64,000 bases of DNA from Alphaproteobacteria bacterium (GTDB lineage: Bacteria; Pseudomonadota; Alphaproteobacteria; RF32; CAG-239), in the NCBI GenBank assembly GCA_045632645.1, contig JAZQXC010000014.1, forward strand, positions 18,166 to 82,165, in the 5' to 3' direction. Made by a program: the position numbers and the translations under genes. Positions 2,110 through 51,578 of the stretch are shown piece by piece (positions within the stretch are counted from its first letter, which is position 1; every line of letters begins with the position of its first letter). The notes below the pieces were generated by a model. The model saw only the letters and a list, made by a program, of their open reading frames with translations. It was not told the origin of the DNA and did no database searches.

Positions 2110-2913
2110 ATGAGAAAATATATCTATATATGCAGTTTATTTTTCACACTAGCGCTCCAACCTGCGTATGCCCAAAAATATGAGTATACGGGACATACCC
2201 CTCCTACTTATATCACTATAAAAGGCGAACAATATGTCCGCATTCCTCACTCTCATGAAACAAAATTCAGAGGTTACCCCTCAAAATTAGACCGACTTAT
2301 CTCAAAAATCTCCCAAGTCAAACCATACATCGGCACCGATATAGGATACAATAAATTAAACAGAATAATTATCCCAAATAATTTCACAGTTGGAGGTATT
2401 ACAAACATAAGCTTCTCAACTCAATTACCTAAAAATATTTTTAATCTATCTGCAAATATGGGATTAAAAATGTCTAAAAATATTAGTCTTGAAGCTTTTT
2501 ATCAGGATACATTTAATCGTAAAGAAAAAGGCGATTTTATAATCTCTACCCCCATTACTGACACAACATCTAAATCTATATCATCATCACAATTATCATT
2601 TAGTTCATATGGATTAGATTTTATATACAGCGCCCCACTATATAACCAAAGTTTAGAAATACTTATAGCTCTTGGTATTGGTTTTTATGATATAGATGCA
2701 AAACTAAAATTACATAAAATGAGACCTGAAGGAGAAGATACAGAGTATTTTGCTTCAAATAAAAGCATCGGACATCGCATAGGTTTTGGTGGACAATATA
2801 ACTTCAACGAACATCTAAGCCTACGAGGAATGGTGCGCTACATAAAATTCACAGATGATAAAATAATAAAAGATATACTAGAATTTTCAACAGGTTTAAG
2901 ATATTATTTTTAA
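2110..2913 (+). CDS. Outer-membrane beta-barrel protein (signal peptide, C-terminal aromatic F)
   Basis: Signal peptide MRKYIYICSLFFTLALQPAYA/Q, alternating amphipathic strands, ends ...GLRYYF. Confidence 0.65.
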   Translation: MRKYIYICSLFFTLALQPAYAQKYEYTGHTPPTYITIKGEQYVRIPHSHETKFRGYPSKLDRLISKISQVKPYIGTDIGYNKLNRIIIPNNFTVGGITNISFSTQLPKNIFNLSANMGLKMSKNISLEAFYQDTFNRKEKGDFIISTPITDTTSKSISSSQLSFSSYGLDFIYSAPLYNQSLEILIALGIGFYDIDAKLKLHKMRPEGEDTEYFASNKSIGHRIGFGGQYNFNEHLSLRGMVRYIKFTDDKIIKDILEFSTGLRYYF

Positions 2914-2920
2914 ACAAAAT

Positions 2921-3125
2921 TCCATCTAGAGTATAGTTCATAAAATACGTAAATGACCCGACCGCAGACAGGCTTCCATCTAGAGTATAGTTCACAAAAT
3001 AAGATATAAAGGAGTAAAATTTTGCGAAATATCACTAGATGTCCTGCAAGGGAGGGGAGTTTACAAAATACGTAAATGACCCGACTGCAGACAGGCTTCC
3101 ATCTAGTGAATAGTTCACAAAATTT
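2921..3125. repeat. GC-rich tandem direct repeat (A-B-A-[69 bp insert]-B-A; A=TTCCATCTAGAGTATAGTTCAYAAAATA, B=CGTAAATGACCCGACYGCAGACAGGC)
   Basis: Three copies of A and two of B with 1-3 mismatches, located between convergent 3' ends of OMP gene and tsaC. Confidence 0.8.
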
Positions 3126-3131
3126 TACCCT

Positions 3132-4076
3132 TTATCTTGAGGCGCGTTTAATCCTATCATTAATAGCCAACCCCACCCCCTCATTGGGAATAGGCGCCAT
3201 AGCGATTCTATCATAATTAGAGTTCTTATCAGCCATTCTCATAAAAGAAAACAAATTAGATGCAGCTTCTCTTAAATCTCCTGATTTGCTTAAGTTTAAT
3301 TCACCAAAATCAAACTCACTACCAAAACCAATATAAAGCTCATTTTCCATTGGTTCTATTGCGTTTATTCTAAACTTTTTAGATGGCGCATAGTGTTTTA
3401 ACATCTGCCCTGGAGATGTTGGTTTATCCGGATTCCCATCAGATAATAAAACCTCTTCACCTAAAACTTCTTCTAATTGCTCTTTAGTAACCCCTCCTGC
3501 TCTAAGCAACACAGCTTTTGGAGTCGTTAAATCTAAAATAGTCGATTCGACACCAACTTCACATTGTCCACCATCTAAAATCATATCAACACTATCGCCC
3601 AAGCTTTCATATACAGCCTCTGCTGTTGTTGGCGAAATGGTTTGTGAACGATTAGCCGAAGGCGCCGCAATCGGAACACCTGCTTTTTCAATCAATTTTA
3701 GCGCAACACTATGATTAGGACATCTAACAGTCATCGTCTTAAGCCCTGCGCAAACCAAGTCCAAACTTGGATTATCATCAATTCTCGGCAAAACAAATGT
3801 TAAAGGTCCCGGCCAAAAAACCTTAGCAAGCTCTAACGCTCTTTCATCAACCTTAACAAACTCTCTCATATCATCTGCTTTTGCAATATGAGATATAAGC
3901 GGATTAAAACTAGGTCTGCCTTTTACTTCAAAAATACCAGCAACAGCCTTGGGGTTAAAAATACTAGCCCCCAATCCATAAACTGTCTCTGTTGGAAAAG
4001 AAACAAGCCCCCCTTTCTTGATAACAAGCGCTCCTTTTATTATATTATCTTCCGAAGCTTTATAAATACCGCTCAT
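3132..4076 (-). CDS. tsaC: L-threonylcarbamoyladenylate synthase (YrdC/Sua5 family, with Sua5-type C-terminal domain)
   Basis: N-terminal YrdC motifs ...FPTETVYGLGA...KGRP...PL..H...; 314 aa. Confidence 0.85.
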   Translation of the reverse strand: MSGIYKASEDNIIKGALVIKKGGLVSFPTETVYGLGASIFNPKAVAGIFEVKGRPSFNPLISHIAKADDMREFVKVDERALELAKVFWPGPLTFVLPRIDDNPSLDLVCAGLKTMTVRCPNHSVALKLIEKAGVPIAAPSANRSQTISPTTAEAVYESLGDSVDMILDGGQCEVGVESTILDLTTPKAVLLRAGGVTKEQLEEVLGEEVLLSDGNPDKPTSPGQMLKHYAPSKKFRINAIEPMENELYIGFGSEFDFGELNLSKSGDLREAASNLFSFMRMADKNSNYDRIAMAPIPNEGVGLAINDRIKRASR

Positions 4077-44909: not shown

Positions 44910-46559
44910 ATGACAGAAAACTTCGCTGACTTGTTAAATGAACAATTCGGTGAAAAAGGCATTGTTGGTTCTGTTATGAAAGGAACTGTTATTCGTGTAA
45001 CTGATGACTTTGCAATCGTTGATGTTGGTTTAAAGTCAGAAGGTCGCATTCCTTTACGTGAATTTGGTAGAAATGATGACATCAACGTTGGTGACGTTGT
45101 AGAAGTTCTCGTTGACAGATACGAAGATAAAGATGGCAACATCGTATTATCTCGCGAAAAAGCTCGCCGTGAAGAAGTATGGCAAGATCTTGAAAAATTG
45201 ATGAACAACAACGAAAGAGTTAACGGTGTTATCTTCGGTCGTGTTAAAGGTGGTTTCACTGTTGATCTTAATGGTGCAATTGCATTCTTACCTGGTTCAC
45301 AAATCGATATTCGCCCAATTAAAGATATCACTCCATTAATGGGTATATCTCAACCATTCCAAATATTAAAAATGGATAAGGTTCGTGGCAACATCGTTGT
45401 TTCTCGCCGTGTAGTATTAGAAGAAACACGCGCATCTGCTAGAGCAGAACTCATTGATACAATCAAAGAAGGCGCTGTTCTTGAAGGTATCGTTAAGAAC
45501 CTTACAGAATACGGTGCATTCATTGACTTAGGTGGTGTTGATGGTTTGTTACACGTAACAGATATTTCTTGGAAGAGAATTAATCACCCAGCAGAACTCT
45601 TGTCTTTAGGTCAAACAATTAAAGTACAAGTTATCAAATTCAATGAAGATACACAACGTATCAGCCTTGGCATGAAACAATTAGAAAACGATCCATGGCA
45701 AGCAGTTGCTGACAAATTCCAAGTTGGTGAAATTTATAACGGTAAAGTTACAAACATCACTGACTATGGTGCATTCATCGAATTAGAAGATGGTATCGAA
45801 GGTTTAGTACACGTATCTGAAATGAGCTGGACACGTAAAAATGTTCACCCAGGAAAGATTGTTTCAACATCTCAAGAAGTTGAAGTAAAAGTATTAGAAG
45901 TAGATATCGACAAACGTCGTATCAGCCTTGGTATCAAACAATGCACACCAAACCCATGGGCAGCATACCTTGAAGAACACCCACTTGGTTCTGTAATTGA
46001 AGGTAAAATCAAAAACATTACAGAATTTGGTTTATTCATTGGTTTGTCTGATGAAATTGATGGTATGATTCACTTATCTGATATTTCTTGGGAAAAATCT
46101 GGTGAAGAAGCTGTAAAAGATTACACCAAAGGTCAAACAATCGAAGCTAAAATTATCGATGTTGACATTGAAAAAGAACGCATCAGCCTTGGCATTAAAC
46201 AAATGTCTGAAAACAACATCGCATTAACATTAGAAACTTTGAAAAAAGGTGATATTGTTAAAGCTGTTGTAACAGGCGCTGATGAAAAAGGTGTACAAGT
46301 AACAGTTCAAGGCATTTCTGCTACAATTAAAAAAGCAGATTTATCTAAAGAAAACAATGACCCATTAAGCTATAACGAAGGCGATGTATTAGAAGCTAAA
46401 TTAACTTCTGTTGATCGCAAAAACGCAAAATTAGGCGTTTCTGTTAAAGCTTTTGAAGTAGAAGAAGAAAAGAAAGCAATTGAAGAATATTCAAATGCTC
46501 AATCATCTGGTTCTGCTCTTGGCGATGCTTTAGGTGAAGCTTTGAAAAATAAAGAATAA
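44910..46559 (+). CDS. rpsA: 30S ribosomal protein S1
   Basis: Start chosen at MTENFADLL by similarity to the canonical S1 N-terminus; alternatives are ATG at 44862 and 44877; six S1 domains. Confidence 0.85.
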   Translation: MTENFADLLNEQFGEKGIVGSVMKGTVIRVTDDFAIVDVGLKSEGRIPLREFGRNDDINVGDVVEVLVDRYEDKDGNIVLSREKARREEVWQDLEKLMNNNERVNGVIFGRVKGGFTVDLNGAIAFLPGSQIDIRPIKDITPLMGISQPFQILKMDKVRGNIVVSRRVVLEETRASARAELIDTIKEGAVLEGIVKNLTEYGAFIDLGGVDGLLHVTDISWKRINHPAELLSLGQTIKVQVIKFNEDTQRISLGMKQLENDPWQAVADKFQVGEIYNGKVTNITDYGAFIELEDGIEGLVHVSEMSWTRKNVHPGKIVSTSQEVEVKVLEVDIDKRRISLGIKQCTPNPWAAYLEEHPLGSVIEGKIKNITEFGLFIGLSDEIDGMIHLSDISWEKSGEEAVKDYTKGQTIEAKIIDVDIEKERISLGIKQMSENNIALTLETLKKGDIVKAVVTGADEKGVQVTVQGISATIKKADLSKENNDPLSYNEGDVLEAKLTSVDRKNAKLGVSVKAFEVEEEKKAIEEYSNAQSSGSALGDALGEALKNKE

Positions 46560-46578
46560 TATTCTTTAAAACCTACAA

Positions 46579-46618
46579 GAAACCCTCAAGTTATTGCTTG
46601 AGGGTTTTCTTTTTCTTA
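46579..46618. terminator. Bidirectional terminator after rpsA and after small secreted protein gene
   Basis: AACCCTCAAGttattgCTTGAGGGTT + T-run. Confidence 0.85.
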
Positions 46619-46622
46619 AAAA

Positions 46623-46883
46623 CTAATCTTCAGTTTCTGTAACCTCTACATCTTCTTCCAAAACAGGCACCATAGAGCTAGAAGATTGAACAGGTGCCAC
46701 CATTACCCCTTCATCACCAGGTAATGGCTCCATGTTGGGGTAATTTTCTGACGACGTCGCTGTAACTGTTTCTGTAATAGCAACACCACTATTATATACT
46801 GGCATTTCATTTCCCGCAATAGCTTGGCTAACAAACAGCGCTATAGCCATAACAGATAAGCATCCTAAAAAAAATTTAAACAT
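46623..46883 (-). CDS. Small secreted acidic protein
   Basis: GGAGG RBS 9 nt before MFKFF; signal peptide; C-terminal EEDVEVTETED. Confidence 0.5.
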   Translation of the reverse strand: MFKFFLGCLSVMAIALFVSQAIAGNEMPVYNSGVAITETVTATSSENYPNMEPLPGDEGVMVAPVQSSSSMVPVLEEDVEVTETED

Positions 46884-46973
46884 TATAAAATCCTCCATAT
46901 TAAAAAACAAAACAGATATAATGTCAGTTTTGCTTTTTTCAACAAAAAAACGGTGGAAAAATCCACCGTAATT

Positions 46974-47564
46974 TTAGAAATAAAACCTCACACCTCCGTT
47001 TATCAGCCATCCCCAGCGATTTTTGCCTCTACCACCAAAAGGCATTGTTTGGTAGCGCGCATCCACATACAAACCAAAACGACTTGTAATATCAACCGCT
47101 CCAGATAGACCAAAACCAAAATAAGGTTTCTCGTGATGTCTATAAAAACGTCCGTCGCAACCATAATTATAACAATAATAATCATAGAAGCAACAATCGT
47201 ATCCCCTGTGCCAATCCTCCTGTAAAGAATAACCTGTGCTAACAATAGCTGCAAGATATCCCCTATCACCCTGAATAAACTTCATACCAAGATTAACACC
47301 AACAGTCATGGTTGATAAATCCTTATGGTCTAAGCCATTACTCTGTTTCACAGATAAATATGAAACTTCAGCTTCACCAAGGATAAAACTATACTCTGCA
47401 CCAACCCTCAGACTAGCAATCGGAGATGTTTGTCCTTTAACAATCGATACACCTGAGCCAAAAGACAAATAAACACCATCATAGCGATCTTGAGCAACCG
47501 CTCTTTCTGAACAAACGACACCAGCAACAAACATTGCTAATATCGCAAAAACATAACTTCTCAT
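46974..47564 (-). CDS. Small outer-membrane beta-barrel protein with Cys/Tyr-rich loop
   Basis: Signal peptide ...SERAVA/Q, ends GGVRFYF, loop CCFYDYYCYNYGCDGRFY. Confidence 0.6.
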   Translation of the reverse strand: MRSYVFAILAMFVAGVVCSERAVAQDRYDGVYLSFGSGVSIVKGQTSPIASLRVGAEYSFILGEAEVSYLSVKQSNGLDHKDLSTMTVGVNLGMKFIQGDRGYLAAIVSTGYSLQEDWHRGYDCCFYDYYCYNYGCDGRFYRHHEKPYFGFGLSGAVDITSRFGLYVDARYQTMPFGGRGKNRWGWLINGGVRFYF

Positions 47565-47620
47565 ATATAAATAATTTTTAATTTCAAAAGTATTATAGCA
47601 CTATTTTTTATCTTTTTCAA

Positions 47621-47658
47621 CAAAAAAGCAGAGAAATGGAAAAAACCATTTTCTCTGC
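47621..47658. terminator. Hairpin terminator between OMP genes
   Basis: GCAGAGAAATGGaaaaaaCCATTTTCTCTGC. Confidence 0.75.
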
Positions 47659-47667
47659 TAATTAATA

Positions 47668-48687
47668 CTAAAAAGCCTTCAAGGCTCTCAGCTCCTTGTT
47701 CGAGATGTTCTTAACCCTGTTCTTATAAAGACCAAAGTTAAATGACGTTCTCACATAGAGCGAACTGCTCGTGATCGGGCTCTCGTTAAGCACGATACCA
47801 CTATGGTATCTCCAGCCAACATCAACAGCAAGGCTATTACCTGTTGCAAAGAAGCGATATTCATAGCGAAGACCAGCTGTTGGATAAAGATAGTTACCCC
47901 ATGACGTAATATACGTCTGATAATTACCATCAATTACTGGAGCGCTATCTGTGCCATAATACTCAAAACCAACGCCAGCAAAAGGCATTAACCTATGCTG
48001 ATCAAACTGATCGAGTTTAAAAGGACGACAACCTAAAACAAGCTCTGTTCGACAAGTGTTGTATCGCTTACCAGCATTAACAGCATGCTCTGTAAACTTT
48101 GACCAACCATACTCAACATTAACTCCTACAGTCCAATAGGGCTGCGAAAATCTAACACCGATACCTGCGATTGGAGAAACGAGCTCAGATGAAACTTGAC
48201 AGCCAATATAACCACTCAAATCCCAACCATACGGATCTGCAGCCTTTTGGACAATCTTACCAGCATCCTTATCGTCATCTGAAACACCTTTAAGCCCATC
48301 AACATAAGCGTAATAAGTATCTCTAAATCTATCATTATACAAACTCTCTACAACACGTGTATCAAGCTGCTTCTGATAAAGACCCTCTTCATCAAGATAA
48401 ACCTCACGCACCACAAAAGTATCGTTAGCCATCTTAAATCGCCCATCGCTGCCAACGAAATACTTTGAAACATAGTACGTTGTAGAAGAATCAAAAACCT
48501 CAATTCTGTTTACAACACGCAAGGTGTCTTTAGAATGTTCTGTCAGATACCCCTTAATCGAAGCCTCCGACCACTCATCAGTACGAATATTCATACCGTT
48601 AACGCAAATAATCTCTTGAGCATTTGCGCTTCCTGCAACAAATGCAAGGACTACGATCAATGTAGCCTTAACAAAAAATCTTTTCAT
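47668..48687 (-). CDS. Outer-membrane beta-barrel protein paralog (339 aa)
   Basis: Signal peptide MKRFFVKATLIVVLAFVAGSANA/QE, identical to that of 48957..49691. Confidence 0.6.
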   Translation of the reverse strand: MKRFFVKATLIVVLAFVAGSANAQEIICVNGMNIRTDEWSEASIKGYLTEHSKDTLRVVNRIEVFDSSTTYYVSKYFVGSDGRFKMANDTFVVREVYLDEEGLYQKQLDTRVVESLYNDRFRDTYYAYVDGLKGVSDDDKDAGKIVQKAADPYGWDLSGYIGCQVSSELVSPIAGIGVRFSQPYWTVGVNVEYGWSKFTEHAVNAGKRYNTCRTELVLGCRPFKLDQFDQHRLMPFAGVGFEYYGTDSAPVIDGNYQTYITSWGNYLYPTAGLRYEYRFFATGNSLAVDVGWRYHSGIVLNESPITSSSLYVRTSFNFGLYKNRVKNISNKELRALKAF

Positions 48688-48925
48688 ATATATTTTTTTT
48701 AAATTTTACTAAAAAACACACATCGATTTAATCTAAAGGCCATATGATTGCATTCCCATAGGTAAGACAATTCATCATAATAAACCAAAATAATCAACAT
48801 GTTGTACTTTAACACCACAATTCTAGCATGTTTTTTTTATTTTTTCAACATTTTTTTGACAAATTTGGCAAATTTTATTATAAAAACATAGTATTTAAAC
48901 AAAACACATCGTATTTAAAATAAAA
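48613..48925. repeat. About 313-bp direct repeat copy 1 (first 25 codons + leader + promoter of OMP gene)
   Basis: About 93-95% identical by eye to 49617..49928. Confidence 0.85.
48820..48848 (-). promoter_or_regulatory. Candidate sigma70 promoter (minus strand TTGAAA-17-TAGAAT) for OMP gene 47668..48687; copy at 49827..49855
   Basis: Hexamers and spacing seen directly; AT-rich context lowers specificity. Confidence 0.4.
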
Positions 48926-48926
48926 A

Positions 48927-48950
48927 AGGGTGAGATAACTCACCCTAAAC
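48927..48950 (-). terminator. Rho-independent terminator after OMP gene 48957..49691
   Basis: GGGTGAGataacTCACCC + T-run on minus strand. Confidence 0.8.
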
Positions 48951-48956
48951 ACGCTA

Positions 48957-49691
48957 CTACTTAGGTCTAAACATAAACGCAACACCCGCGTTTATATATG
49001 GACCCGAGTGCTTAAAGTCTTGCTTACCATGAGAATGAATAACTCTCGGATAGATATTATATCCACCCTCGCAAACAAACTTTACTCTAGGAGCCAAACT
49101 TGCAGATACTCTAAGACCAGCGCCACCAGTAAAACCAAAATTTTTTGAATAGAACTGAGCCTCTCTTTTATCTGTCTGTTGCAAACCATAGCCAGCACCA
49201 ACAACTATCGCTAAATAATTGCGACAAAGTCTGTCCTGCCATACCTTGTAACCAAAGTTTGCTCTAAACTGCCAAGTTAAATAGCTAGAGCCGTACCCTA
49301 GAGATTCAATTGTATGTTTCTGACGAGATATAGTAGCTTCGACCTCAACAATCTGATGACATGTCTCGAACATACCTCTGAGCGTAAAGCTAGGATTAAG
49401 CTGGCGATCAACATAGTTGCAACCTACAAGAGGCACAATACCAAAGTTGTGTCGTTGCCCTCCAAGCATATTACGGTGCTCAGGATCAAAGACTCTAGTA
49501 TCCCCTCTAAGAATACTCTCCTGCTCAGTCATGGTCAGCGAATCTGTTCTTGTCTCCCTGAAACTCTCAGCAATTCTCATCTCTAGCTGTTTTCTTCTAG
49601 AAATTTTTTTCTCAACCTCTTGAGCATTTGCACTTCCTGCAACAAATGCAAGGACTACAATCAATGTAGCCCAACCAAAAAATCTTTTCAT
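48957..49691 (-). CDS. Outer-membrane beta-barrel protein paralog (244 aa)
   Basis: Signal peptide MKRFFGWATLIVVLAFVAGSANA/QE; ends ...GVAFMFRPK. Confidence 0.6.
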   Translation of the reverse strand: MKRFFGWATLIVVLAFVAGSANAQEVEKKISRRKQLEMRIAESFRETRTDSLTMTEQESILRGDTRVFDPEHRNMLGGQRHNFGIVPLVGCNYVDRQLNPSFTLRGMFETCHQIVEVEATISRQKHTIESLGYGSSYLTWQFRANFGYKVWQDRLCRNYLAIVVGAGYGLQQTDKREAQFYSKNFGFTGGAGLRVSASLAPRVKFVCEGGYNIYPRVIHSHGKQDFKHSGPYINAGVAFMFRPK

Positions 49692-49928
49692 ATGAATATA
49701 TTTTTTTAAATTTTACTTAAAAAAACACATCGATTTAATCTAAAGGCCATATGATTGCATTCCCATAGGTAAGACAATTCATCATAATAAACCAAAATAA
49801 TCAACATGTTGTACTTTAACACCACAATTCTAGCATGTTTTTTTTATTTTTTCAATACTTTTTTGACAAATTTGGCAAGATTTATTATAAAATACACAGT
49901 ATTTAAACAAAATACTATGTATTTAAAA
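49617..49928. repeat. About 313-bp direct repeat copy 2
   Basis: See copy 1. Confidence 0.85.
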
Positions 49929-49930
49929 CT

Positions 49931-50443
49931 CTATTTTATCTTTTTTCGTAGTAATATATACAAAGCACCCGCACCACCCAAAGCTTCAGAAGGGTTTTTA
50001 TAAGCCAAAATCAAAGAACCAATATCATCAGAAGAAAGCCACATAGGAACAGATTTTCTTAAAACGCCTTTTTCACTAAAAGGCTCATCATTTATGCCTT
50101 TACCTGTAATAATTAAAACACATCTAAAACCATTATTATAGCAAGAAAGAACAAAGTCTACAACCCTTCTGTGTGCATCTTTTTCTGTTATACCATGTAA
50201 ATCAAGCGTAGCCTCAACCCTAAATTCCTCGCGCTTAAATCTTTTTGCAAGAGAGCCATCCATTTGTGTAAAATCATCTTTTTTAACAGGCTTGCCTCTG
50301 GATAAACAACTAAAAGCAACACTCTTATCTTTTTTATTATTTAAACTTATTTCTTTTTGTGTTATCTCGTCAGTAAATTTATTATGCCTAATAGGCACCA
50401 CATCTTTGATAACCTCATTCCAACTATCATCTACCATAAACAC
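49931..50443 (-). CDS. smrA: Smr-domain protein
   Basis: LDLHG...VLIITGKG Smr signature; conserved Tim44-like-mltA-smr synteny. Confidence 0.8.
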   Translation of the reverse strand: MFMVDDSWNEVIKDVVPIRHNKFTDEITQKEISLNNKKDKSVAFSCLSRGKPVKKDDFTQMDGSLAKRFKREEFRVEATLDLHGITEKDAHRRVVDFVLSCYNNGFRCVLIITGKGINDEPFSEKGVLRKSVPMWLSSDDIGSLILAYKNPSEALGGAGALYILLRKKIK

Positions 50444-51578
50444 TCACCCTAGAGTCTTTTGGCAACACAACAAAATACCTACCACTATTGTTCATCTTGC
50501 CCGCATATTCTAAAGCATCTTCGCCATGCCCCCAAAAATAATCCCCGCGAATAGGTCCCTTAATTGCGCCACCAACATCTTCAGCCACAATTAATTTATT
50601 TAATTTGCCAACAGGGCTATCCGTTTCTAACCACAAAATAGTGCCCAGAGGAATAAAAGATTTATCAACTGCCATTGCTCTTCCTGCAAACAAAGGAACA
50701 CCAAGCGCCCCTATAGGTCCTTCTGCATCAACTATTTTATGAAAAATATATCTATTATTTACCCTCATATTTTCAACAGCTTTGGCGCCATTTTTATTTA
50801 GCCATTTTCGAATTTTCATCATAGATGCATCTTGAGGTTTAATAAGCCCCCTTTCTAACAAAATAGAACCAATTCCTCTAAAACTATGTCCATTATTTTC
50901 TTGGTAACCAATTCTAACATTTTCACCATCAGGAAGACTTGCCACCGCAGACCCTTGAATTTGCATTATATATATATCAACCAAATTATCTCCCCATAAA
51001 ACAACAGGAGCATCGATTCCATTTATCTCAATATCTTTTCTTGTATAATATTTAACAAGCCTTCCATTCTCAACCCTACCAATTAGTCTCTCATTTGGAA
51101 GTTTTAAATTAAAATCCCTAAGATTTACCTCAATCAAATCATTCGGTTTACCATAAATAGGGTATTTATATTTATCATCTTTTTTATAACTAGCCCTAAT
51201 CTCTGCCTCATAATAAGACGTAAATTTTCCCTTATCACTGCCATTAAAAACAACTAAATATGGTTCAAAATTTCTTTCTATATATTTTTTTATTTCGCTT
51301 ATATCACTTAGTTTATTTATTCTTTTACAATGCTTTTTATACTCATCTACTGAATATTCAAAAACATCGCTTTTTAAGGTATCATTTTTATTTTGTTCAA
51401 TTTTTTCACATACAGATTTAATTGTTTTATCAAACAAAAAAAGATTATCTTTATTCCACCCATCTAAACTCGAAAACTTTGTTTTCTTTAAGACAAAACC
51501 AACCTCTCGCCCGCCTTTATCAACCGAGCAAGAAAACACCATTAAGCTTAATAAAACAACAAGTACACGTCTTAGCAT
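50427..51578 (-). CDS. mltA: Membrane-bound lytic murein transglycosylase A (lipoprotein)
   Basis: Lipobox VFSC; MltA and 3D-domain motifs LIVAEDVGGAIKG...DYFWG. Confidence 0.85.
   Translation of the reverse strand: MLRRVLVVLLSLMVFSCSVDKGGREVGFVLKKTKFSSLDGWNKDNLFLFDKTIKSVCEKIEQNKNDTLKSDVFEYSVDEYKKHCKRINKLSDISEIKKYIERNFEPYLVVFNGSDKGKFTSYYEAEIRASYKKDDKYKYPIYGKPNDLIEVNLRDFNLKLPNERLIGRVENGRLVKYYTRKDIEINGIDAPVVLWGDNLVDIYIMQIQGSAVASLPDGENVRIGYQENNGHSFRGIGSILLERGLIKPQDASMMKIRKWLNKNGAKAVENMRVNNRYIFHKIVDAEGPIGALGVPLFAGRAMAVDKSFIPLGTILWLETDSPVGKLNKLIVAEDVGGAIKGPIRGDYFWGHGEDALEYAGKMNNSGRYFVVLPKDSRVSVYGR

What the first reader, a model, noticed from the sequence alone, without database searches (positions are those of the whole stretch)
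48613..49928. Duplicated 313-bp promoter-leader-signal-peptide module fused to two unrelated OMP mature domains
Segments 48613-48925 and 49617-49928 are about 93-95% identical by eye. Each covers about 75 nt of coding sequence, giving the identical signal peptide MKRFF(V/G)(K/W)ATLIVVLAFVAGSANAQE, plus about 240 nt upstream. That upstream part includes a minus-strand TTGAAA-17-TAGAAT promoter candidate and a conserved 5' UTR of about 135 nt.

Identity stops abruptly after the signal peptide. The mature parts (IICVNGMNIRT... versus VEKKISRRKQLE...) are unrelated in sequence. This looks like recombination or gene conversion keeping a common expression and export cassette on divergent surface-protein bodies. 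It is reminiscent of variable surface-antigen families. The long conserved leader may itself be regulatory.
Basis: seen in the sequence. Interest (0 to 1): 0.6.

Follow-up and report, generated by a model that had tools for sequence, protein, structure and literature searches.

The report
Shared 5' cassette on paralogous porin-like genes
Two neighbouring outer-membrane barrel genes of an uncultured alphaproteobacterium share a nearly identical promoter, leader and signal peptide because that 5' part keeps being copied between them, a known kind of gene conversion rather than a new system.

Summary
The repeat is real. Window 48610-48920 and 49614-49928 are 93.3% identical over 315 columns (E 5e-131), with only two copies in the window. 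Each copy holds a conserved extended -10 promoter, a leader of about 126 nt and 26 codons (signal peptide plus two residues). Identity stops abruptly after that.

The mature parts are not unrelated. Both are predicted 8-stranded OmpA/OmpX-type barrels. Their profiles align over 208 columns (hhalign E 1.5e-6), and a relative, P0017, bridges the two architectures.

In relatives the same Smr / OMP-B / OMP-A / OMP-C order recurs. The module differs between genomes (74-82% identity) but is alike within each genome (87-95%). Of 40 informative sites, 36 group the copies by genome and 3 by position. Orthologous bodies are 89-91% identical.

This is segmental concerted evolution (gene conversion) of the 5' end of old tandem paralogs. 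One assembly lacks OMP-B with a single module left, which hints at deletion between the repeats. No RNA family or conserved structure was found in the leader. The reference genome holds only two copies and the bodies are stable, so this is not an antigen-variation family. It is an ordinary, well-documented example of a known process.

The parts
49614..49928 (-). Module copy B: the whole Smr/OMP-B intergenic region plus the first 26 codons of OMP-B
   Evidence: blastn 93.3% over 315 columns against 48610-48920; alignment
48610..48920 (-). Module copy A: starts right after the OMP-B terminator and runs through the first 26 codons of OMP-A
49827..49855 (-). Promoter-like site of module B: TTGAAA, 17 nt, TAGAAT, with TG before the -10 hexamer
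   Evidence: the -35 TTGAAA and TGnTAnnnT are conserved in L001 and L016
48820..48848 (-). Promoter-like site of module A: TTGAAA, 17 nt, TAGAAT, with TG before the -10 hexamer. The spacer holds an A8 run.
   Evidence: the run is A9 in the close strains L019 and L021
48856..48871 (.). Imperfect palindrome TTGNCAA-NN-TTGNCAA just upstream of the -35 hexamer (module A); candidate operator
   Evidence: Found only in the two modules within the window; conserved in L001, L003 and L016
49863..49878 (.). The same palindrome in module B
48891..48919 (-). Two TTTAAATAC boxes 20 nt apart (start to start) at the distal end of module A. The module B equivalent is at 49899-49927.
   Evidence: Read from the sequence; the first box is conserved in L001 and L016
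48688..48813 (-). Predicted 5' leader of OMP-A, about 126 nt, A/T-rich and without a Shine-Dalgarno motif. The TSS is inferred from the -10 position, not measured.
   Evidence: no Rfam match or structure
49692..49820 (-). Predicted 5' leader of OMP-B (TSS inferred)
48619..48687 (-). Signal peptide of OMP-A (23 aa, with an ANA|QE signal-peptidase-I-type site)
   Evidence: Translation; the cleavage site is inferred from the AXA rule
49623..49691 (-). Signal peptide of OMP-B (23 aa; 21 of 23 residues identical to that of OMP-A)
47668..48687 (-). OMP-A gene (339 aa): signal peptide, small N-terminal alpha/beta domain, low-confidence linker, 8-stranded barrel and a short C-terminal helix
48957..49691 (-). 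OMP-B gene (244 aa): signal peptide, helical segment and 8-stranded barrel
48927..48946 (-). Intrinsic-terminator-like hairpin of OMP-B followed by a T-run; it separates the two transcription units
   Evidence: conserved in L001, L004 and L016
47621..47659 (-). Hairpin plus T-run after OMP-A, running directly into the -35 hexamer of the OMP-C promoter
   Evidence: Read from the sequence; promoter at 47620-47592
46974..47564 (-). OMP-C (196 aa): third tandem barrel paralog, with its own short promoter and leader and a different signal peptide. It is not part of the module.
   Evidence: hhalign B versus C E 3e-8

Best explanation
OMP-B, OMP-A and OMP-C form an old tandem array of diverged paralogs that encode small 8-stranded outer-membrane barrels. 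The host is an uncultured, low-GC alphaproteobacterium.

Each gene is its own transcription unit, with a promoter in front and a terminator behind. In OMP-B and OMP-A the 5' end is kept nearly identical within each genome. That shared part covers about 235 nt of upstream DNA with the promoter and leader, plus the signal peptide and two residues of the mature protein. It is maintained by repeated homologous recombination (non-reciprocal gene conversion) between the two direct copies, which lie about 1 kb apart.

Conversion tracts end where body homology ends, which explains the abrupt drop in identity after the signal-peptidase site. The likely result is that both barrels are transcribed from the same promoter and operator, carry the same leader, and are exported with the same signal peptide.

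The same direct repeats can also recombine reciprocally and delete the OMP-B unit.

What is shown: the repeat, the barrel folds, body homology at profile level, conserved synteny, and the by-genome grouping of module copies. What is inferred: the molecular mechanism (RecA-type conversion), promoter activity and the TSS, co-regulation, and the reality of the deletion allele.
For: Repeat: 93.3% over 315 columns, E 5e-131, two copies in the window.

Synteny: the order Smr, OMP-B, OMP-A, OMP-C, small ORF, rpsA is conserved in L001, L004, L016 and L019. The duplication is therefore older than these lineages.

Module identities: within a genome 87-93% (window), 85-87% (L001) and 95% (L017 versus L010, separate contigs from one sample). 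Between genomes, at the same position, 74-82% for window versus L001 and about 65% for window versus L016.

Site patterns for window A/B plus L001 A/B: 36 group by genome, 3 by position (all at the distal end), 1 other. The flanking bodies behave as orthologs, at 88.7% (A) and 91.4% (B) DNA identity.

Signal peptides co-vary by genome in four lineages:
- MKRFF..AGSANAQE in window A and B.
- MRNLFVKATMMVVLAFVAVSASAQ in P0002/P0003 and P0011.
- MRKSIFKAAMVVVFAFVAMSAGAQEVKE in P0006 and P0012.
- MLR(K/N)(I/V)SVKTIAMMVFALVAVSASAQEVK in P0007 and P0014.

Close strains show patchy sharing of single variants between A and B.

Bodies are homologous: hhalign A versus B has probability 90%, E 1.5e-6, over 208 columns, and B versus C has E 3e-8. 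P0017 has a B-type barrel and a C-terminal tail that aligns with OMP-A's, plus an N-terminal domain that looks A-like by eye. Both AlphaFold models have 8 strands, and their best PDB matches are OmpA-TM, Ail, NspA and OmpX at E about 1e-5.

Repeat signature in independent assemblies: many contigs end inside the module (L002, L010-L015, L018), and OMP-B often sits on contigs of about 1 kb.

Deletion: L003 and L004 have flanks that are 100% and 99.9% identical, but L003 goes from Smr through one module straight to OMP-A.
Against: No experiment or read-level data were available, so the conversion is inferred from sequence patterns only.

Most related loci come from short-read metagenome assemblies, which can collapse or chimerise near-identical repeats. 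That may explain the 100% A/B identity in L016, some of the mosaic variants in L019-L022, and the L003 'deletion'.

Body homology rests on shallow profiles (9 and 7 sequences) and 17% identity. hhalign probability is 90%, not 99%. An early transplant of the module onto a paralog therefore cannot be excluded.

Selection for co-regulation is not demonstrated. Homogenisation could be a neutral by-product of proximity.
Confidence: 0.8

Rival explanations
1. Cassette shuffling. In this view a promoter, leader and signal-peptide module was recently fused by recombination onto two unrelated OMP genes. It would belong to a larger reassorting family of surface antigens.
For: Pairwise BLASTP finds only the signal peptide as a strong match (E 2e-10), while the bodies reach only E 0.057. 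blastn finds nothing between the bodies. Identity breaks abruptly after codon 26.
Against: Profile comparison aligns nearly the whole B body to A with E 1.5e-6, while the A-versus-C control is not significant. Both bodies are 8-stranded barrels. The same two bodies sit at the same positions in at least four lineages, each with its own module version. The scanned reference genome has only two copies of the signal-peptide sequence. The bodies are 89-91% conserved between strains.
Confidence: 0.08
2. Programmed copy-number or phase variation. In this view the direct repeats exist to allow reversible deletion and re-duplication of the OMP-B cassette. Slippage in the A-run of the promoter spacer could add to this, switching surface composition within gut populations.
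For: L003 lacks OMP-B, yet its flanks are 100% identical to those of L004, which has it. The A8 versus A9 run changes the -35/-10 spacer from 17 to 18 nt between close strains.
Against: There is one deletion observation from a short-read metagenome assembly and no read-level support. An A8/A9 run is short for efficient slippage. OMP-B is present in most loci recovered. Deletion between any two direct repeats is expected anyway as a by-product.
Confidence: 0.1
3. Purifying selection alone. In this view a strongly constrained regulatory leader and promoter is conserved in both copies since the duplication, without any exchange between them.
For: Sequence blocks of the module are conserved even between species with 56% OMP-A identity.
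Against: The module differs by 18-35% between genomes but only 5-13% within a genome. 36 sites are shared by the two copies of one genome and differ in the other genome. Constraint alone cannot produce parallel identical changes in both copies.
Confidence: 0.01
4. Assembly artefact. In this view a single module was written twice by the assembler.
For: The L016 copies are 100% identical and L004 has an N-gap in module B.
Against: The window copies differ at about 21 positions including indels. The L001 copies differ by 13-15%. Both copies have distinct flanks. The same arrangement appears in many independent assemblies.
Confidence: 0.01

Closest known systems
Segmental concerted evolution of Helicobacter pylori OMP paralogs (babA/babB, homA/homB, sabA/sabB), as reviewed in PMC3960876
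   Same: The genes are paralogous outer-membrane protein genes. One segment shows intra-strain similarity higher than inter-strain similarity while the rest diverges. That pattern is attributed to RecA-dependent intragenomic gene conversion.
   Different: In H. pylori the homogenised segment is the 3' end and the loci are dispersed. Conversion there creates chimeras that change adhesin expression. Here the homogenised segment is the promoter, leader and signal peptide, the genes are adjacent, and the barrels are small 8-stranded ones. No chimeric bodies were seen.
Borrelia burgdorferi 'upstream homology box' (UHB) / Erp (OspE/F-related) gene family (PMC7002432, citing Marconi 1996 and Akins 1999)
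   Same: Genes with divergent mature parts share a similar promoter region. From my own recollection of Akins 1999, not read here, they also share similar leader peptides.
   Different: The Borrelia genes encode lipoproteins and occur in many copies on cp32 prophage plasmids. Here there are two chromosomal tandem genes with a signal-peptidase-I type signal (ANA|QE, no lipobox cysteine). There is no prophage context.
Concerted evolution of prokaryotic paralogs in general (definition in PMC6053082; tufA/tufB and rRNA operons from general knowledge)
   Same: The defining pattern holds: paralogs within a genome are more alike than orthologs between genomes.
   Different: Here only a tract of about 315 nt, mostly non-coding, is homogenised. 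The coding bodies have diverged to about 17% identity.
E. coli ompA long 5' UTR (133 nt; stabilises the mRNA and is an sRNA target; general knowledge, not tested here)
   Same: An OMP gene carries a leader of more than 120 nt between promoter and start codon.
   Different: No sequence or structural similarity exists. No stable or conserved hairpins are predicted here, and there is no Shine-Dalgarno motif.

Membership tests
Concerted evolution / gene conversion between paralogs | Paralogous copies within a genome are more similar to each other than to their orthologs in other genomes | tested here: met
   Within-genome identity is 85-95% and between-genome identity is 65-82%. 36 informative sites group by genome against 3 by position.
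Concerted evolution / gene conversion between paralogs | The duplication predates the lineages compared: orthologous flanks and bodies, same synteny | tested here: met
   The gene order is the same in L001, L004, L016 and L019. Orthologous bodies are 88.7% and 91.4% identical.
Concerted evolution / gene conversion between paralogs | Mosaic tracts with variable end points | tested here: inconclusive
   In L001 the distal 40 nt and the -10 region keep the positional signal, while the leader and signal peptide are homogenised. Close strains share patchy SNPs, but chimerism in metagenome assemblies cannot be excluded.
Small 8-stranded outer-membrane beta-barrels (OmpA-TM / OmpX / Ail / NspA class; Pfam OMP_b-brl PF13505) | N-terminal Sec signal peptide | tested here: met
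   The sequence has an n-region, an h-region and an ANA|QE site. Judged by eye; no dedicated predictor was available.
Small 8-stranded outer-membrane beta-barrels (OmpA-TM / OmpX / Ail / NspA class; Pfam OMP_b-brl PF13505) | Eight antiparallel transmembrane strands with fold similarity to solved members | tested here: met
   The AlphaFold models have 8 long strands, with barrel pLDDT mostly 75-92. Foldseek matches OmpA-TM, Ail, NspA and OmpX at E about 1e-5 with probability 1.00. The alignments behind the models are shallow.
Small 8-stranded outer-membrane beta-barrels (OmpA-TM / OmpX / Ail / NspA class; Pfam OMP_b-brl PF13505) | Pfam model match above the gathering score | tested here: not met
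   OMP-B scores 18.6 bits against a cut-off of 28.7 (E 0.002). OMP-A and OMP-C have no hit. These are fold-level members and are not captured by the curated sequence family.
Variable surface-antigen or phase-variable families (Opa, Msp2/P44, Mycoplasma Vlp/Vsp type) | Many expressed or silent copies per genome | tested here: not met
   The signal-peptide coding pattern matched only twice in the one related representative genome and twice in the window. The rest of the source genome could not be scanned.
Variable surface-antigen or phase-variable families (Opa, Msp2/P44, Mycoplasma Vlp/Vsp type) | Mature parts are hypervariable between strains or reassorted | tested here: not met
   Bodies are 88.7-91.4% identical between strains whose modules are only 74-82% identical. 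No body swaps were seen.
Variable surface-antigen or phase-variable families (Opa, Msp2/P44, Mycoplasma Vlp/Vsp type) | Simple-sequence tract that switches expression | tested here: inconclusive
   An A8 run lies in the promoter spacer and is A9 in L019 and L021. It is short and there is no expression data.
Borrelia UHB / Erp family | Lipoprotein signal with a lipobox cysteine | tested here: not met
   The signal ends AGSANA|QE and has no cysteine.
Borrelia UHB / Erp family | Multi-copy, on prophage plasmids | tested here: not met
   There are two tandem copies among housekeeping genes (rpsA, Smr, MltA, SecB, enolase).
Known cis-regulatory RNA (riboswitch, leader or sRNA family in Rfam) | Match to a covariance model, or a conserved structure with covariation | tested here: not met
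   No Rfam match comes near the gathering score in either module. The MFE z-score is -0.91. RNAalifold predicts 0 pairs on 9 leaders.

The most novel reading that the evidence does not exclude
The module would be a selected 'co-expression cassette'. Its direct-repeat geometry would be used by the bacterium to switch OMP-B on and off in gut populations, by reversible deletion or duplication of the 1-kb unit and by length changes of the A-run in the promoter spacer. An unknown regulator would bind the conserved TTGNCAA-NN-TTGNCAA palindrome and the TTTAAATAC boxes.
Probability: 0.1. Interest if true: 0.5.

Novelty: new member of a known kind. Interest (0 to 1): 0.3.

Why it matters
This is a clean natural example of gene conversion homogenising only the regulatory and export part of duplicated genes. 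The protein bodies, meanwhile, diverge to the edge of recognisability. It shows that a sharp boundary between identical and apparently unrelated sequence need not mean a fusion of foreign parts.

For annotating these uncultured alphaproteobacteria it has three practical uses. It explains recurrent contig breaks at this locus. It assigns three unnamed proteins ('hypothetical protein' where a source names them at all) to the small OmpA/OmpX-type barrel class. It also flags a possible presence/absence polymorphism of one surface protein.

It does not open a new mechanism.

Tried and rejected
- Rfam at permissive E-value over 46500-50500 gave only chance-level hits and nothing credible in the modules.
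- Single-sequence folding of the leader gave z -0.91. A consensus fold of nine leaders gave no pairs. A structured riboswitch or leader is therefore not supported.
- An upstream ORF lies in the leader (window 48800-48699, 33 codons; 36 codons in L016). I rejected it because L001 and L014 have stops after 8-14 codons and the peptides are not conserved.
- Two metagenome-contig scans, one with the signal-peptide pattern and one with the promoter pattern, returned nothing. That collection evidently lacks these samples, since L012 contains the first pattern.
- The genome-contig scan found only the L001 genome, so copy number in the window's own genome beyond the 64 kb could not be checked.
- Pfam gave no confident family for any of the three OMPs.
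- The look-up of encoding contigs for the window's own OMP-B (P0010) found nothing on record. The listing of cluster members gave no accession or name.
- My search for the TTTAAATAC direct repeat used the wrong spacer (N12 instead of N11), so it is uninformative.
Full report
**1. The observation**

The window is 33.5% G+C. On the minus strand it carries three consecutive genes for secreted proteins:
- OMP-B, 48957-49691, 244 aa.
- OMP-A, 47668-48687, 339 aa.
- OMP-C, 46974-47564, 196 aa.

They lie between an Smr-domain gene with MltA upstream and a small ORF with rpsA downstream.

Window 48610-48920 and 49614-49928 are 93.3% identical over 315 aligned columns, with blastn E 5e-131. The repeat finder and MAFFT agree. 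A central stretch of about 130 nt is 100% identical. No third copy exists in the 64 kb; the next best hits score 37 bits or less.

Each copy holds 233 or 237 nt of upstream DNA and the first 26 codons. Identity collapses right after codon 26.

**2. Anatomy of a copy, read on the minus strand**

- Module B starts 2-3 nt after the Smr stop codon.
- Module A starts at the T-run of an intrinsic-terminator-like hairpin that follows OMP-B (48946-48927).
- Next come two TTTAAATAC boxes 20 nt apart.
- Then comes an imperfect palindrome, TTGNCAA-NN-TTGNCAA, which occurs only in the two modules within the window.
- Then comes a TTGAAA, 17 nt, TG-n-TAGAAT promoter-like site.
- A leader of about 126 nt follows. 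The TSS is inferred, not measured.
- The stretch in front of the ATG is pure A/T with no Shine-Dalgarno motif. About half of the other genes in the window have such a motif (23 of 47).
- Last is a 23-residue signal peptide ending ANA|QE.

OMP-A is followed by its own hairpin and T-run, which run into the separate, short promoter of OMP-C (47620-47592). The three genes are therefore separate transcription units, and only B and A share the module.

**3. What the proteins are**

Pfam gives only a sub-threshold OMP_b-brl hit for OMP-B and nothing for OMP-A or OMP-C. The families are narrow: 9 proteins for A and 8 for B in 5.8 billion clusters.

AlphaFold models were built from these shallow alignments.
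- OMP-A (mean pLDDT 67): a small N-terminal alpha/beta domain, a low-confidence linker and eight long strands.
- OMP-B (mean pLDDT 72): N-terminal helices and eight long strands.

Foldseek against the PDB puts both models next to OmpA-TM, Ail, NspA, OmpX and OmpW, at E about 1e-5 with probability 1.00.

**4. Are the bodies unrelated?**

Pairwise BLASTP finds only a weak co-linear match (22% over 153 residues, E 0.057). Profiles of the mature parts, with signal peptides removed, tell a different story. They align over 208 columns, covering nearly all of B against residues 81-308 of A, with hhalign probability 90% and E 1.5e-6.

OMP-B also aligns to OMP-C (95%, E 3e-8). The A-versus-C comparison is not significant (0.6%). 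That serves as a control, showing the method does not score any two barrels highly.

One relative, P0017, has a B-type barrel. Its tail (GRNKVNNKISNHRL) aligns with OMP-A's (YKNRVKNISNKEL) in BLASTP. Its N-terminal domain also looks A-like by eye.

I conclude that the three genes are old, strongly diverged tandem paralogs. 'Unrelated' is true only at the pairwise level.

**5. Relatives**

Exact-protein look-ups recovered the locus in other assemblies.
- L001/L005 is a MAG titled 'Alphaproteobacteria bacterium ... SGB_4990'.
- L003 and L004 represent one strain in two samples.
- L016, L017, L006-L010, L013-L015 and L018 come from more distant species, with 56-57% OMP-A identity.
- L019-L022 are close strains of the window's organism.

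The order Smr, OMP-B, OMP-A, OMP-C, small ORF, rpsA is conserved. The B/A duplication therefore predates these lineages.

Many contigs end inside the module (L002, L010-L015, L018). OMP-B often sits alone on contigs of about 1 kb. Both are what assemblers produce at a repeat.

**6. Concerted evolution**

Module copies within a genome are much more alike than copies at the same position in different genomes.

| Comparison | Identity |
|---|---|
| Window A versus B | 87-93% |
| L001 A versus B | 85-87% |
| L017 (B) versus L010 (A), separate contigs of one sample | 95% |
| Window versus L001, same position | 74-82% |
| Window versus L016 | about 65% |

Among the four sequences window A/B and L001 A/B, 36 informative sites group the copies by genome and 1 fits neither grouping. 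Only 3 group them by position, and all three lie at the distal upstream end. The adjoining bodies are plainly orthologous by position: 88.7% (A) and 91.4% (B) DNA identity, with no detectable A-to-B nucleotide similarity.

The signal peptide differs between four lineages but is the same in A and B of each. Constraint alone cannot produce that pattern, and neither can a single old duplication. The module has been exchanged between the two genes repeatedly.

The tract ends vary. In L001 the -10 region and the distal boxes keep a positional signal. In the window the whole 315 nt is homogenised. In the more distant species identity runs four to five codons further.

Close strains also share single variants patchily between A and B: a Trp or Lys codon, a synonymous GGAAGT/C change, and two promoter sites. 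I treat that last point cautiously, because metagenome assemblers can chimerise near-identical repeats.

**7. Deletion variant**

L003 and L004 have flanks that are 100% (2305 of 2305) and 99.9% identical. L003 runs from Smr through one module directly into OMP-A, whereas L004 has the OMP-B unit, with an N-gap in its module.

This is what unequal or intramolecular recombination between the direct repeats would leave. It is also the kind of path an assembler could take if OMP-B had low coverage. Read-level data are needed to decide.

**8. The leader**

- There is no Rfam match of note.
- The leader does not fold better than shuffled sequence (z -0.91).
- Nine leaders from four or five lineages have no consensus pairs.
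- A 33-codon upstream ORF in the window is not conserved.

Some sequence blocks are conserved even at 56% protein identity. They are the -35 hexamer, the TG-extended -10, the palindrome, the first TTTAAATAC box and an ATGTTGAWTTATTTTRG block early in the leader. Binding sites for a regulator or an sRNA therefore remain possible but untested.

**9. Comparison with known systems**

The pattern fits the definition of concerted evolution (PMC6053082).

The closest documented case among OMP genes is the segmental concerted evolution of H. pylori babA/babB and homA/homB. There one end of the paralogs shows intra-strain similarity through RecA-dependent gene conversion (PMC3960876). In that case the homogenised part is the 3' segment and the loci are dispersed.

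The Borrelia 'upstream homology box' family shares the idea of a common promoter region on divergent mature parts (PMC7002432). But it consists of multi-copy prophage-plasmid lipoproteins.

Neither family's defining features are met here, so these are analogies of mechanism or layout, not memberships. The variable-antigen reading fails on copy number (two) and on body stability.

**10. Verdict**

The finding is real, and its core idea (recombination keeps a common 5' cassette) is supported. The 'unrelated bodies', 'antigen family' and 'regulatory RNA leader' parts are not.

It is a new, tidy member of a known kind of process, found in a poorly known group of bacteria. Interest is modest. The most novel reading still open is programmed on/off switching of OMP-B through the repeats and the A-run in the promoter spacer. 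I give that reading about 10%.

Noticed in passing
window 2920-3125: An intergenic repeat: 2935-3000 and 3058-3123 are 92% identical over 66 nt. A shorter box, TTCCATCTAGAGTATAGTTCA, occurs three times. It lies between the convergent or divergent genes 2110-2913 (+) and 3132-4076 (-).
   Followed up: no
window 46928-46958 and 47606-47636: The terminator T-run runs directly into a TTGAAA -35 hexamer (TTTTTTGTTGAAAAAG) in two places. One is before OMP-C and the other is before the 95-aa secreted ORF 46623-46910 (family D9). This is a second, shorter reused terminator-promoter junction in the same gene array.
   Followed up: partly
window 48688-48712, 49692-49716, 47565-47590: All three OMP genes lack any Shine-Dalgarno-like motif and have pure A/T in front of the ATG. 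By contrast, 23 of 47 long ORFs in the window have AGGA/GGAG/GAGG-type motifs.
   Followed up: partly
window 48856-48871 / 49863-49878, compared with L001 and L016: The two half-sites of the palindrome are swapped between species. On the gene strand the window reads TTGCCAAATTTGTCAA, while L001 and L016 read TTGACAATTTTGGCAA. The cause is either two compensating substitutions or a small inversion of the palindrome.
   Followed up: no
window 48826-48842 (promoter spacer) compared with L019 and L021: The A8 run between the -35 and -10 hexamers is A9 in the A-module of close strains. That changes the spacer from 17 to 18 nt.
   Followed up: no
window 48699-48800 (-): A 33-codon ORF lies inside the leader (MLIILVYYDELSYLWECNHMAFRLNRCVFFSKI). 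A 36-codon ORF sits at the same place in L016, but it is cut to 8-14 codons in L001 and L014. It is probably not a gene.
   Followed up: yes
P0017 (JGI, 372 aa; not in the window): This relative has an OMP-B-type barrel and a C-terminal tail that aligns with OMP-A's. Its N-terminal domain also looks A-like by eye. It links the two body types.
   Followed up: partly
L003 compared with L004: These are the same strain, with flanks 100% and 99.9% identical, found with and without the OMP-B unit in two metagenome assemblies.
   Followed up: partly
L011 (GCA_052845035.1): A distant OMP-A homolog (34% identity) sits in a different neighbourhood (DsbA-like, PMT_2, UvrB). Its contig also starts only 77 nt before the gene. 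That may mean its 5' region is repeated there too.
   Followed up: no
window 45475-46202: The internal direct repeats found by the repeat finder (families D2, D3, D5) are the S1-domain repeats of rpsA. They are ordinary.
   Followed up: yes
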